From NCBI GenBank assembly GCA_951406725.2, contig OX597818.1, positions 52,514,001 to 52,578,000 on the forward strand: DNA of 64,000 nucleotides. The letters are read 5' to 3'. This DNA comes from Octopus vulgaris (taxonomy: Eukaryota). A program made the position numbers and the translations under genes. Shown one piece after another: positions 12,412 through 55,673 of the stretch. The notes beneath the pieces are model-generated. The model made no database searches. It was not told the DNA's origin and was given only the letters and a program-made list of their open reading frames with translations. Each line of letters begins with the position of its first letter. Position 1 is the first letter of the stretch.

Positions 12412-13773
12412 ATACTGTACAGGTAATTTTGCAGATTCCGAATCAGGATATTCCCATGTTTCTGTTTTTGAAACAAGTGGAACCTTACATATTAACGACA
12501 CAAAAATAACAATCATTGTCTGTTATTTTCGACTCTCGTCACTCTATAAACACTTTGAACTTTGAAAGTTTTCTTTGTCCTTTTGTCTTATGCCGAAGGG
12601 AATCTACACAGACTTTGCATTCCTTATGGGGAACCCATTATTCATCTTCATCTCTACATTTCATTCCATAATAAAAAAAGACTAGCACGAAACCAGTTAT
12701 TTCTCCAAAGCAATGTCACTACACACAAAATTTTATAACATTTTCCTTACATGACGATTTGAATATATTTTTTAACCATATAATACAATTCTTCGGTAGT
12801 TTATTCATTATATCTTGTTTGGAGCAGTCTCGATTATAACCAGCCAAAACTGCAAAGATAATCTGGAACTCGACTGACGAAAGAAAACTGAATGACCCGT
12901 CCTTGTTTTTTCTTGTCCCTTTTTGTATCATCAACTTGTCTGGACGTCTTTTTGTCGCCTGTTGCATTCTTGTCCCATATTTTATATTCTTTATATATAT
13001 ATATATATATATATATATATATATATATATATATATATATATACATGTACGTATGTACGTATGTATGTATGTATGTATGTATGTATTATGTATGTATGTA
13101 TATATGTATGTATGTGTGTATATATATATATATATATGTGTAAGATATAAGTTAGAGGTAATGTAACTATCTAAGGGATAGATGTATCCATACACACTCC
13201 ATATATGGTCCGTGTTATAAGGTATGCGGTAGCAGGTAATTTAATAGGTAAAATGTGGTTTAATATATATATAAAGACGATAAGAAATGGAGCAATAAAC
13301 AGTGAAAAGTGCATTGTTGATGTTATAAAGTCATTTTTTAATTAAGACTTTATAAATAATGACTTTATAATACAAACGATTCACTTATCACTGTTTATTG
13401 GTCCATTTCTTTACGTCTTTATATATGTATGTATGTAAACACACACACACACACACACACACACACACACACACACATATATATATATATATATATATTA
13501 CTATGCTGGACCGCTGAAATCTACATGTTTTTGTCATTCTCTCTCTATTTTCTCTTATTCCTTCCTGTTGAAGAGCGTAGACTCGAAACGTAAATTACTT
13601 TTTCATTTCCACGATCTTCAAAATAATACACTTTCTTGTTTTTCATACATCTGTCTTCTGATTTTCTATAAATTTCAACAACACAAGTGTGTGTGTGAGT
13701 GTGTGTGCATATATATATATATATATATATATATATATATATATATATATATATATATATATATATATATATA

Positions 13774-14440
13774 ATTATATTAAATTAGAGATAAAACCAC
13801 TATTAGGCAAATCATACAATGAAAAACTCAAGCCAATACATAAGATTAATTAATTTATATTATTTTAAATATATATCAAAATTATTAAAAAAAGATAATT
13901 AGTATAATAGTAGGCTTTCCATTTAATTCTAGAAGCAAAATCCTCAATATTATTAATAAGTTTCAAAATAAAATACCTTTCTAGAAGGTACTGGAATATC
14001 CTTCAATGATGAATTCCAAAATAGCGGTTCTATCTTACCTGTAAATTCCATAATTTACGAAGTTGAGATATTACACTCAATATACGTAATTTATCAATAT
14101 ATTATGAATTAATTTATTGGTAAATTACGTATATTGAGTGTAATATCTCAACTTCGTAAATTATGGAATTTACAGGTAAGATAGAACCGCTATTTTGGAA
14201 TTCATCATTGAAGGATATTCCAGTACCTTCTAGAAAGGTATTTTATTTTGAAACTTATTAATAATATTGAGGATTTTGCTTCTAGAATTAAATGGAAAGC
14301 CTACTATTATACTAATTATCTTTTTATAATAATTTTGATATATATTTAAAATAATATAAATTAATTAATCTTATGTATTGGCTTGAATTTTTCATTGTAT
14401 GATTTACCTAATAGTGGTTTTATCTCTAATTTAATATAAT
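13774..14440. repeat. Long AT-rich inverted repeat (about 326-bp arms, about 15-nt loop) between (TA)n tracts
   Basis: 13774-14099 is the reverse complement of 14115-14440 with few mismatches. Confidence 0.9.
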
Positions 14441-15224
14441 ATAATATTTTACTATAAAATTGGATTCAATCCTAAATCTGATTTTTCCCTGTAAGCTTGG
14501 ATTTATTCCCTAATATTTTATTATATATATATATATATATATATATATATATATATATATACACATATATATATGTATATATATATATAAATATATGAAT
14601 TTTTTGCAATCTCCTACGATACTCTTCTTATACGTGCATGCGCGCGCATACATACAGCCACGCAAATATATATGCGTATGTATGCTTTTCCTCTCTGTCT
14701 TCCTCTCACTAACACCACCATATCTGAATCCAACGTCAAATGCGGTTACCCTCCCCCCACAGACACGACTTATTGCACAACGTTGTTGCTATTGCGTGGC
14801 TCCACACATGACGCTCCAGCACATCAGTTCACATGCAGAGCCCGATACCAATCCTATATGCACGCAGATTAGAGCATACACCAGTCGTATTTACACACAC
14901 AGACACACGCACACATACACACGCACACACACACACACACACACACACGCACACACATACGCTCACTCTCACACACAAACGTGTACACACACGCACACCA
15001 AACGTAAACACACGCACACTCGTTCATCCAGATAAACACACAGACATTTATACGCACACATCCATTCTCTCATACCAGTCGGGTACGCGCGCACATGCGC
15101 ATAAGGTAATCACAAACACACACGTACTCGTGCATGCACACATACATGCACACATACATGCACACATACACACACACACACACATGCGCACATAGAACTG
15201 ATACGCACGCAGCTGATATATACA

Positions 15225-15626
15225 ACAGAAACGTTAGCACGCCAGGCGAAATGCGTTGCCGTATTTCGTCTGCCGTTACGTTTCGAGTTCAAATTCCGCC
15301 GAGGTCGACTTTGCCTTTCATCCTTCCGGGGTCGATAAATTAAGTACCAGTTACGCACTGGGGTCGATGTAATCGACTTAATCCCTCTGTCTGTCCTTGT
15401 TTGTCTCCTCTGTGTTTAGCCCCTTGTGGGTAGTAAAGAAATAGGTATTTCGTCTGTCTTTACGTTCTGAGTTCAAATTCTGCCGAGGTCGACTTTGCCT
15501 TTCATCTTTCCGGGGTCGATAAATTAAGTACCAGTTACGCACTGGGGTCGATGTAATCGACTTAATCCCTTTGTCTGTCCTTGTTTGTCTCCTCTGTGTT
15601 TAGCCCCTTGTGGGTAGTAAAGAAAT
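15225..15626 (+). mobile_element. SINE family B (tRNA-like head GGCGGCGAGCTGGCAGAA; Meta-domain-like GAGGTCGAC...TTTCATCC...TAAGTACC), tandem dimer
   Basis: Two units of about 180 bp joined at AAGAAATA|GGTATTTCG. Confidence 0.85.
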
Positions 15627-16073
15627 ATATACAACTGACACACATACCCACATATACGCGTACACAAGCACACACACACACACACACACACACATACATA
15701 CACAGAGCAGATATGCACCCACACCCACATACTAACACACCCTATGAAACACATGCATACGCACCATGAAGCTGATTCATCGGGCGGCACCCACAAGCAC
15801 CCACATACAAGCACAATCACCTACATACACACAAAGCGGATATACACGCATGCGCATCAGACACGCATTCATGTAGCAAGCACACATACACACACTCACA
15901 TGTCTCACTGGTCATCGATGTGGCTTAATTGTCTTCAAATACTTTCCAGTCAGAGGGGCGCCACCAGTTTGCTGTCTGGCCACGAGGTCAAAGAAATTCA
16001 GACTAGGATCTCATTTTGATAGGTTTCATGTCATTGACTTCCAACATTGATGTCATTGACTTCCAACAACAAA

Positions 16074-54061: not shown

Positions 54062-54804
54062 TATATATAGTCAAAATGAGGGTGAAAAAATTGGATATTA
54101 ATTTAATAACATCAATTTAAACACCAGTGGTCTAGCGCATAAAAGACTGAGATTCGGTAAATATTATTAATACACAAATATGAGAGAGAATCCACTATGT
54201 GGACGCTCTTACGCTAGATATAGATCCTCAAGGGTCTGAACCACTAAGAATTGTTCTATATATATATATATATATGTGTGTGTATATATATATATATATA
54301 TATATATATATATATATATATATATATATATATATATATATAGATAGATAGATAGATAGATAGATAGATAGATAGATTCAGATGAATAAGGTACTTAATT
54401 TGAGGCACCAGAATTTAGTACAGTATTATCCATACAATTTCAAAGTAAGGTGATTAAAATCAAAATAAAGATTGTCAAAAGTAACATGTGGAAGGTTGGT
54501 TGCGTTAATTATTGGTTGTTGCAAATTGCTACATTACATATATATATACAGTCTTTGGTAACAGGGACATGTTATGGACATAAAAAAGTACAACAGTATG
54601 TTGAGAATATAAAGAGGTTTAACAAGCTCATTGAAAAAATGGGCAGAAAAGATTAAAACAAATATATTATACATCTCAGGATATCCTTGTTGCTTATTTT
54701 GATTTATATATATATATATATATATATATATATATATATATTTGCATATTTATATATAGATTATTTACGCATATTTATTAATTAATTATTTTGATTATTG
54801 TGTT

Positions 54805-54908
54805 TAATCTGATGAGTGGCTATATTTATATTCAAGTGATTTTACTACTACTACTAATATTTTTACTATAATCATTTCTTAAATATAGCCACGAAACACG
54901 TGTCGTTA
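54805..54908 (+). ncRNA. Type I hammerhead ribozyme, intact core
   Basis: TAAT-CTGATGA-GTGGCTATATTTA...TAAATATAGCCAC-GAAAC-ACGT-GTC-GTTA: 13-bp perfect stem II, palindromic stem III, GUC cleavage triplet at 54902-54904. Confidence 0.85.
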
Positions 54909-55207
54909 TTCTACCGAATATATACTTTTTATTTATTATTTTGCATATTACTTAATCATCGTTATATTTTTATCTTGTACTTAATCTTTCTATTATATGT
55001 AATTTTCTAGATGGTGCAATTTAGTCTTTCATTTTGAATTGATAAAAGGTGGTTTTTTCTAATTTATACATATATATAATATATATATATATATATATAT
55101 ATATATATATATATATATATATATATATATATATATATATATATATATATATATGTATTTATATATATATATATATATATATATATATATATATATATAT
55201 ATATATA

Positions 55208-55673
55208 TATACGAAAGAAGGTTTGAAAATGCAATTTAAAAGATGTTTTATTTACTTTACCGGTTTCACTCTTTGGAAAAAGATTGTCAAAAGTAACATG
55301 TGGAAGTTTGGTTGCGTTAATTATTGGTTGTTGCAAATTGCTACATTACATATATATATACAGTCTTTGGTAACAGGGACATGTTATGGACATAAAAAAG
55401 TACAACAGTATGTTGAGAATATAAAGAGGTTTAACAAGCTCATTGAAAAAATGGGCAGAAAAGATTAAAACAAATATATTATACATCTCAGGGTAACATG
55501 TCCCTGTTACCAAAGACTGTATATATATATATGTAATGTAGCAATTTGCAACAACCAATAATTAACGCAACCAAACTTCCACATGTTACTTTTGACAATC
55601 TTTTTCCAAAGAGTGAAACCGGTAAAGTAAATAAACATCTTTTAAATTGCATTTTCAAACCTTCTTTCGTATA
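55208..55673. repeat. Inverted repeat (about 180-bp arms), PLE-terminus-like, with degenerate hammerhead at 55588-55628; partial direct copy at 54466-54680
   Basis: Arms about 55208-55386 and 55493-55673; ACTT-TTGACAA-TCTTT(TTCC)AAAGA-GT-GAAAC-CG-GTA-AAGT. Confidence 0.8.

What the first reader, a model, noticed from the sequence alone, without database searches (positions are those of the whole stretch)
13568..55628. Dispersed decayed hammerheads, including a recurrent non-canonical core (UUGAYAA...GAAAC-CG-GUA)
Seen: hammerhead topology recurs at 19404 (TTGATAA/GCAAC), 55588 (TTGACAA/GAAAC), 42742 (TTGAAAA/GAAAC), 40082, 20788 (-) and 42924 (-), and more weakly at 13568, 29824 and 47600. 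Three unrelated contexts share C3->U and G8->A changes. Known: positions 3 and 8 form a tertiary pair (C3-G8), and U3-A8 is a compensatory swap that retains activity. Inference: this may be a selected variant core rather than random decay.
Basis: partly seen in the sequence, partly recalled or inferred. Interest (0 to 1): 0.7.

Follow-up and report, generated by a model that had tools for sequence, protein, structure and literature searches.

The report
Retrotransposon hammerheads with swapped core pairs
These scattered motifs are small hammerhead-ribozyme sequences, likely all at the ends of broken Penelope-type jumping genes in an animal genome; the U-A core pair that was flagged is an inherited trait already in print, but one site carries a G-C swapped pair that is predicted to still cut RNA and that I found in no paper as a natural form.

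Summary
The window is animal DNA with many fragments of Penelope-like retroelements (PLEs). Most listed sites are real minimal type I hammerheads with palindromic helix III. One lies behind a GIY-YIG gene; three sit in inverted pairs with a one-sided tail and (TA)n ends, typical of PLE insertions.

The three U3-A8 sites are real, but not unrelated: they share helix III, 3' flank and (two of them) tail motifs. In public contigs of three DNA runs, U3 and A8 of the 55592 family each vary in under 1%, so the pair is inherited, not copy decay. The same cores (UUGAUAA, UUGAAAA) were published for Schistosoma PLEs in 2014. Site 29824 is not a hammerhead; 13568, 19404, 40082 and 42924 carry decayed cores.

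New here: site 47600 is a well-formed hammerhead with a G3-C8 core on both arms of a PLE-type inverted insertion (chance about 0.006 per window). I found no paper reporting natural G3-C8. This scan has noted U3-A8 in another PLE, and G3-C8 in phages and a protist PLE (unchecked notes). Cleavage is untested and the G3-C8 evidence is one insertion.

The parts
55592..55624 (+). U3-A8 minimal hammerhead: intact core, 6-bp helix I (55586-91/55625-30), U10.1.U11.1 mismatch then 5-bp helix II, palindrome ACCGGU; followed by tail to 55712 and (TA)n
   Evidence: family-wide state
55258..55290 (-). Inverted twin of the 55592 hammerhead (arm 55206-55380), no tail; a third copy at 54467-54568 (-) breaks off inside helix II
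42745..42775 (+). U3-A8 minimal hammerhead (UUGAAAA), A.C mismatch at the base of a 3-bp helix II, palindrome ACCGGU; about 100-bp fragment between (TA)n/(TG)n runs
19408..19437 (+). U3-A8 hammerhead with A13C (likely dead), in the terminal repeat about 780 nt behind the GIY-YIG gene; tail on this arm only
16985..17014 (-). Inverted twin of the 19408 hammerhead (arms 16906-17400 / 19021-19516, 98-99% complementary), no tail
18071..18660 (+). 3' end of a PLE gene: C-x4-C-x2-C linker and GIY-YIG endonuclease, frameshifted near its end; inverted part-copy at 17512-18083 (-)
47538..47573 (-). G3-C8 hammerhead (GUGAACA): intact invariant core, 7-bp helix I, extra nucleotide 9a, G10.1-C11.1 5-bp helix II, palindrome AAUAUU, cut site UUU; this arm bears a 55-nt tail and ends in (TA)n at 47379-47392
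47605..47641 (+). Second arm of the same insertion, same G3-C8 core, one mismatch in helix I; ends directly in (TA)n at 47731
54809..54904 (+).
55906..55980 (+).
20792..20864 (-). C3-G8 hammerhead of a long-helix-II family, partly decayed
35369..35446 (+). Same family as 20864, with mismatched C3.A8 core and loosened helix II base; exact palindrome ACAAUUGU
27259..27335 (-). Second C3.A8 copy of that family; exact palindrome ACGAUCGU
42928..42971 (-). Decayed C3-G8 hammerhead (U4C, G5A), 4-bp helix I
40085..40119 (+). Possible decayed C3-G8 hammerhead (G12A), 6-bp helix II; context uncertain
13565..13592 (+). Weak hammerhead-like remnant (A6U, no helix I)

Best explanation
The motifs are minimal hammerhead-ribozyme sequences, likely all in the terminal repeats of several families of Penelope-like retroelements, left as short, often inverted fragments in (TA)n runs; each family likely inherits its own Watson-Crick pair at core positions 3 and 8 (C-G, U-A or G-C). 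Shown: the motifs, their helices, palindromic helix III, the GIY-YIG gene in front of 19408, inverted arms with a one-sided tail at three loci, and that U3/A8 is the majority state of the 55592 family. Inferred from the PLE literature: in an intact tandem element two ribozymes on one transcript pair through the palindrome and cut after NUH, trimming the element RNA; the RT/GIY-YIG protein then copies it into (TA)n. Inferred: the 3-8 pair is structural (G8 acts through its 2'-OH), so a founder element with a double change could keep cutting and found a lineage, while single changes are mostly lost. After insertion the copies decay neutrally (A13C, G12A, G5A, A6U). In inverted insertions a read-through RNA is predicted to fold into long double strand that buries the ribozyme.
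For: Descriptor hits scoring 22 or more: 4 observed, null mean 0.06, maximum 2 in 992 block shuffles. With 3/8 free and an intact core, 7 of the 8 hits scoring 19 or more are Watson-Crick at 3-8, against 27% among chance hits. The ORF is 53-61% identical to 5 proteins of RT + GIY-YIG build. Inverted arms, tail at one end and (TA)n at 19408, 55592 and 47600 match the PLE layout in PMC8557442. Helix III is an exact palindrome in 7 of 11 sites checked (40082 was cut at the wrong coordinates there; its palindrome is seen) and at 47600, with different letters between families. (2039, 1154 and 724 contigs of three DNA runs): no T>C at 55592 and no A>G at 55597 at 1% or more; position 17 is U in 44-60%, C in 8-9%, and has no G row; all 4 variable positions listed inside the ribozyme are tolerated ones (rough chance 0.013; helix II register chosen after seeing the data). 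Same cores published: S. mansoni families 3 and 4, about 1,300 U3-A8 hits. U10.1.U11.1 is a known natural variant.
Against: No cleavage was measured. Only 19408 is physically linked to a PLE gene; the others are assigned by layout. Low variation at 3 and 8 does not by itself prove selection: variable positions are 4 of 45 in the ribozyme, 12 of 94 upstream, but only 3 of 78 downstream, so the family may simply be young; contigs drop rare variants. The covariation test weakens as kin are merged: p 0.003 (10 of 11 rows), 0.027 (8 of 9), 0.17 (3 of 4); rows were hand-picked. Two copies share a mismatched C3.A8 core, so a lineage may spread without a good pair. PMC9901934 reports that only the G-C swap rescued this region; PMC11167929 reports that ribozyme mutants did not affect insertion in vitro and no RNA reads began or ended at the cut site. 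Helix II of 55592 is weak (-0.2 to -1.1 kcal/mol). No Rfam hammerhead hit among the 150 rows shown of 229.
Confidence: 0.85

Rival explanations
1. PLE origin, but the U3-A8 and G3-C8 ribozymes are dead passengers: a founder acquired the changes, lost cutting, and spread anyway because a helper protein copies the RNA without cleavage.
For: Cleavage was dispensable in vitro for an Anolis PLE; Naiad PLEs thrive without canonical hammerheads; C3.A8 copies exist; U-A was not among the rescues in a mutational scan.
Against: Three U-A families with different helix I and II letters all keep pairing; position 17 varies only within A/U/C; two transversions that exactly restore the pair at 47600 are unlikely to be neutral; the C3G/G8C double mutant partly restores cutting in a PLE ribozyme.
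Confidence: 0.25
2. U3-A8 arose independently three times by convergent selection.
For: Helices I and II and upstream flanks differ among the three; flank similarities are weak (p 0.003-0.043, uncorrected, T-rich DNA; 7 of 55 pairs reached p<0.05).
Against: All three share ACCGGUA; all three pairwise flank tests are among the 7; GCATTTTC follows in all three; a 9-nt tail motif is shared by 19408, 55592 and a third end at 16808 (3 matches, 0.13 expected).
Confidence: 0.15
3. Site 47600 is a fold-back DNA element (MITE-like) and its G3-C8 hammerhead shape is chance.
For: It is a long inverted repeat; no second copy in the window; no PLE gene attached; I found it after freeing positions 3 and 8; its helix III palindrome is A/U-only and weak (-0.2 kcal/mol as a bare duplex).
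Against: Helices I and II form within each arm, not across the palindrome; intact-core hits this good occur 0.006 (score 28) and 0.033 (score 24) times per shuffled window with any letters at 3/8 (1071 shuffles); the minimum-energy fold is the hammerhead frame, z -3.1; one-sided tail and (TA)n ends as at the other PLE sites.
Confidence: 0.15
4. All sites are chance look-alikes in AT-rich DNA, where UUGAnAA is the commonest core.
For: U-A is 316 of 753 chance hits in the restricted null; TTGAnAA occurs 80 times in the window. This probably explains 29824 and 62907.
Against: and the PLE layout.
Confidence: 0.03

Closest known systems
Minimal hammerheads of Penelope-like elements, including the U3-A8 families of Schistosoma mansoni Cercyon (Cervera and De la Pena 2014, PMC4209133)
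   Same: Type I minimal fold, palindromic helix III, short helix I, place in the terminal repeat, scattered single and opposite-strand copies; cores UUGAUAA and UUGAAAA appear in its Fig. S3.
   Different: Here a 6-nt palindrome ACCGGU; U.U or A.C at the base of helix II in two U-A sites; very long helix II in three C-G families; a G3-C8 core, absent from the rows of Fig. S3 that I read (supplement parts 1-2 of 3).
Natural hammerhead core variants (Perreault et al. 2011, PMC3088659)
   Same: U3-A8 covariation and U10.1.U11.1 are described as natural.
   Different: G3-C8 is not mentioned in the section on core variation.
Engineered C3G/G8C swap (PMC9901934, PMC11167929, PMC8495972)
   Same: Same G3-C8 pair; restores cutting partly, also in a PLE ribozyme.
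   Different: Made in the laboratory; here it occurs in a genome.
EN+ PLEs of the Neptune/Nematis build (Craig et al. 2021, PMC8557442)
   Same: C-terminal GIY-YIG, CX2-5CxxC linker, inverted truncated copy, one-sided tail, microsatellite targets.
   Different: Clade not placed by a tree; the window holds only the 3' end of the gene.

Membership tests
PLE minimal type I hammerhead | Invariant core U4 G5 A6 A9, G12 A13 A14 A15.1, U16.1 H17 | tested here: met
   Intact at 55592, 55290, 42745, 47605, 47573, 54809, 55906; one or two changes at 19408, 13565, 40085, 42971 (decayed copies).
PLE minimal type I hammerhead | Watson-Crick pair at positions 3-8 | tested here: met
   10 of 11 family rows; the exception is the C3.A8 pair of copies.
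PLE minimal type I hammerhead | Short palindromic helix III (dimer design) | tested here: met
PLE minimal type I hammerhead | G10.1-C11.1 at the base of helix II | tested here: inconclusive
   Met at 19408, 47573/47605, 54809; U.U at 55592 (known variant) and A.C at 42745.
PLE minimal type I hammerhead | Located in the terminal repeat behind an RT/GIY-YIG gene | tested here: inconclusive
   Met for 19408 only; others by insertion layout. Scans for related loci found no close relatives.
PLE minimal type I hammerhead | Self-cleavage as a dimer | not testable with these tools
   Co-folding pairs the palindromes for 55592, 54809 and 55906 but not for 47573; prediction only.
Rfam hammerhead families | Covariance-model score | tested here: inconclusive
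   No hammerhead family in the 150 rows shown of 229 at E<=10; 79 rows unseen.
EN+ PLE, Neptune/Nematis build | RT followed by C-terminal GIY-YIG | tested here: met
   Pfam GIY-YIG E 0.004 and 1.4e-4, both just under the curated cut-off; homologues carry RVT_1, one also GIY-YIG; tblastn to E 3e-56.
EN+ PLE, Neptune/Nematis build | CX2-5CxxC linker before the endonuclease | tested here: met
   C-x4-C-x2-C invariant in alignment A1; definition from PMC8557442.
EN+ PLE, Neptune/Nematis build | Inverted truncated copy, tail at one end, microsatellite target | tested here: met
   Three loci.
EN+ PLE, Neptune/Nematis build | Phylogenetic placement in the clade | not tested
   No named reference sequences were at hand.

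The most novel reading that the evidence does not exclude
An animal PLE family carries a working natural G3-C8 hammerhead, so that three Watson-Crick versions of the 3-8 pair (C-G, U-A, G-C) run side by side in one genome as lineage marks, each with a fitting letter at the cut site (U17 rather than the partner of position 3). Searches built on CUGA would have missed a whole class of retroelement ribozymes.
Probability: 0.5. Interest if true: 0.55.

Novelty: new variant of a known kind. Interest (0 to 1): 0.4.

Why it matters
The U3-A8 core as flagged is known and adds one more animal lineage. The G3-C8 site matters more: the swap has been a laboratory proof of the 3-8 pair, and a natural family using it would show that published hammerhead counts miss a class. 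A genome with many PLE families in three pair states would also allow a direct test of whether PLE ribozymes are under selection to cut, which is still open (cleavage was dispensable in vitro in PMC11167929).

Tried and rejected
No whole genome is held, so the genome-wide descriptor test could not be run. Scans for loci encoding relatives of the PLE protein gave nothing in metagenome, genome and viral collections with alignment A1 and 5 distant loci (23-28% identity) with A2; one, L004, has a C3-G8 minimal hammerhead candidate behind its gene, too few to count. Pattern scans of prokaryote and viral collections returned chance matches, used only as a background of 240. A 19-nt pattern of the 47600 core found 0 viral stretches; a profile of its two arms found no other copy in the window. 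No RNA holder on record was listed for 55492-55708. Rfam gave U6 and spurious microRNA hits on palindromes and microsatellites. 29824 was tried as type I, II and III and fails each. 62907(-) scores 18 but is nearly all A/U (chance level). Other palindromes (13758-14456, 19590-19915, 41655-41725) hold no convincing hammerhead. The relaxed two-mismatch scan is swamped by (TA)n and its null is not usable. No ORF start resembling the PLE N-terminus was evident to me downstream of 5 ribozymes translated. Three papers that could report natural G3-C8 (Lunse 2017, Przybilski and Hammann 2007, Hammann 2012) were not held.
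Full report
Setting. The window is 36.6% G+C, rich in microsatellites and holds a U6 snRNA gene: animal DNA. No whole genome is held. I recall its common short repeats as typical of octopus; that label is recalled and comes from no call.

Checking the sites. The three U3-A8 motifs are at 19408-19437, 42745-42775 and 55592-55624. A pattern made from them hits 5 places, none in 100 shuffles; the two extra are inverted twins. 42745 and 19408 did not pass that scan's thresholds in their true register. Against 240 chance matches of the same sequence pattern, none paired as well on both helices as any of the three; by summed score 5 (19408), 1 (42745) and 0 (55592) of 240 reached them. 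20788 and 42924 are decayed C3-G8 hammerheads; at 42924 the UUGAUAA is in loop II. 40082 (G12A) is plausible, 13568 weak, 29824 not a hammerhead.

What they belong to. 19408 lies about 780 nt behind a GIY-YIG gene end that is 53-61% identical to 5 database proteins, which have the RT plus endonuclease build, with a C-x4-C-x2-C linker. The gene end and terminal repeat are duplicated in inverted form; only the + arm has a tail; both end in (TA)n. 55592 and 47600 have the same layout. PMC8557442 describes this layout for PLE insertions (passages). Helix III is a palindrome with different letters in different families, the dimer design described in PMC4209133 (text parts 1-2 of 4) and PMC6765202 (passages).

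Are the U-A contexts unrelated? No. All three share ACCGGUA. Their 3' flanks align with p 0.017, 0.043 and 0.003 (300 shuffles each; 7 of 55 pairs reached p<0.05; uncorrected, T-rich). GCATTTTC follows in all three, and a 9-nt tail motif occurs 3 times against 0.13 expected. One ancestral double change is the simplest reading.

Inherited or decayed? Contigs of three DNA runs laid on 55492-55708 (2039, 1154, 724 contigs at 80% likeness or more) show no T>C at position 3 and no A>G at position 8 at 1% or more; the per-run tallies account for all A>G places and hold no T>C place, so the 5 hidden rows cannot be these changes. Position 17 is U in 60, 44 and 45%, C in 8-9%, with no G row. The other listed variants inside the ribozyme are in loop II, U.G to U-A in helix II and U-A to U.G in helix I. 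A rough count puts the chance of that at 0.013, with the helix II register chosen afterwards. Against over-reading: the downstream flank is as invariant (3 of 78 positions, against 4 of 45), depth is no copy number, and contigs drop rare variants. So U3-A8 is the family's founding state; selection on it is suggested, not shown. Only this one family was laid.

Known status. PMC4209133 reports U3-A8 in S. mansoni PLE hammerheads (about 1,300 hits), and its Fig. S3 lists UUGAUAA and UUGAAAA cores (supplement parts 1-2 of 3). PMC3088659 (section 8) reports natural U3-A8 and U10.1.U11.1 and cites in vitro activity of the covaried pair. PMC9901934 (passages; its data files unseen) found that only the G-C swap rescued this region. 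PMC11167929 (passages) found partial rescue by C3G/G8C in a PLE ribozyme, no effect of ribozyme mutants on insertion in vitro, and no RNA reads at the cut site.

The G3-C8 site. With positions 3 and 8 left free, 47600 appears as a hammerhead on both arms of an inverted insertion: 47573-47538 (-) and 47605-47641 (+), core GUGAACA, intact GAAA and UH, 7-bp helix I, extra nucleotide 9a, G10.1-C11.1, palindrome AAUAUU. Intact-core hits scoring 28 and 24 or more arise 0.006 and 0.033 times per shuffled window with any letters at 3/8 (1071 shuffles). The minus arm folds into helices I and II as its minimum-energy state (z -3.1; 1 of 200 shuffles as good); the plus arm does not (z -0.95). The arms differ mostly at 9a, loop II and flanks but agree at G3 and C8, so the pair predates the insertion or duplication. 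The two arms count as one observation. No other copy is in the window. Searches for 'G3-C8', 'C3G'+'G8C' and 'G3C8/U3A8/GUGANC/A3-U8' returned only laboratory mutants or nothing (PMC3884650, PMC8495972: passages). Three relevant papers were not held and may report it. Earlier unchecked notes of this scan describe G3-C8 in two phage windows and a protist PLE. Inference: G3 could mispair with C17 and U3 with A17, which fits U17 at 47600 and the U17 lean in the 55592 family; PMC3884650 mentions such a 3-17 competition.

Covariation in the window. Over 11 hand-picked family rows 10 are Watson-Crick (permutation p 0.003); with the U-A lineage counted once 8 of 9 (p 0.027); one row per state 3 of 4 (p 0.17). 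The exception is a pair of C3.A8 copies in the 20864 family.

Side result. The fourth run laid (X8, RNA only by the tool's guess, 65 contigs) shows 22 A>G among 42 variant places, against 10 of 54 pooled in the DNA runs (Fisher p 0.0009; places not independent), including A14 (6%) and A15.1 (10%), which are at most 0.05% in DNA runs. The inverted arms at 55206-55670 fold into one long duplex. This looks like A-to-I editing, known for Penelope repeats in lizard and very high in octopus (PMC5625713, passages), but no DNA of the same individual was laid. A search for hammerhead + ADAR + editing + cephalopod found 0 papers.

Other papers consulted by passages without bearing on the verdict: PMC7151607, PMC6155905, bioRxiv 10.64898/2026.07.22.740005 (supplements closed).

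Verdict. Real PLE hammerheads. The flagged U3-A8 core is inherited and already known. The G3-C8 site is a credible new natural variant resting on one insertion and no assay. Interest 0.4.

Noticed in passing
window 55492-55708, run X8: Strong excess of A>G differences in a run guessed to be RNA, touching ribozyme core A14 and A15.1; looks like ADAR editing of inverted PLE ends, which would silence the ribozyme.
   Followed up: partly
window 19162-19366 and inverted copy 17053-17259: 112-bp duplication in the PLE terminal repeat, each unit with CACGTG and CCAAT boxes and one with an E2F-like site (motif names recalled): a possible cell-cycle-linked promoter.
   Followed up: no
window 54370-56370: Nest of at least four PLE-type ends (two canonical hammerheads, three copies of the U-A one, pieces of the 20864 family) separated by (TA)n runs.
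   Followed up: partly
window 16773-16841: A 60-bp end with tail, 87% like the 55592 family, next to the inverted arm of the 19408 element.
   Followed up: partly
window 48732-49495 (-): Broken remnant of another PLE reverse transcriptase (27-46% to P0001-P0005), about 1 kb from the G3-C8 element; link not shown.
   Followed up: no
window 29700-29935 and 12826-12981: Two copies of a repeat with a conserved hairpin, GAAAC and a downstream CUGAYGA in an order that does not make a hammerhead; ends in microsatellite.
   Followed up: partly
window 13758-14456, 19590-19915, 41655-41725: Near-perfect palindromes, the first two beside (TA)n runs, without a recognisable hammerhead.
   Followed up: partly
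window 832-935 (-): U6 snRNA gene (Rfam 101 bits).
   Followed up: no
window 28903-29265 and 30056-30646: Mariner/Mos1-type transposase fragments (Pfam HTH_48).
   Followed up: no
window about 8240-9540 and 2112-2920: Direct duplication with a 940-bp offset; tandem array of 21 copies of 39 bp.
   Followed up: no
L004 2035-2060: Candidate canonical minimal hammerhead just behind a distant PLE-like gene in a metagenome contig.
   Followed up: no
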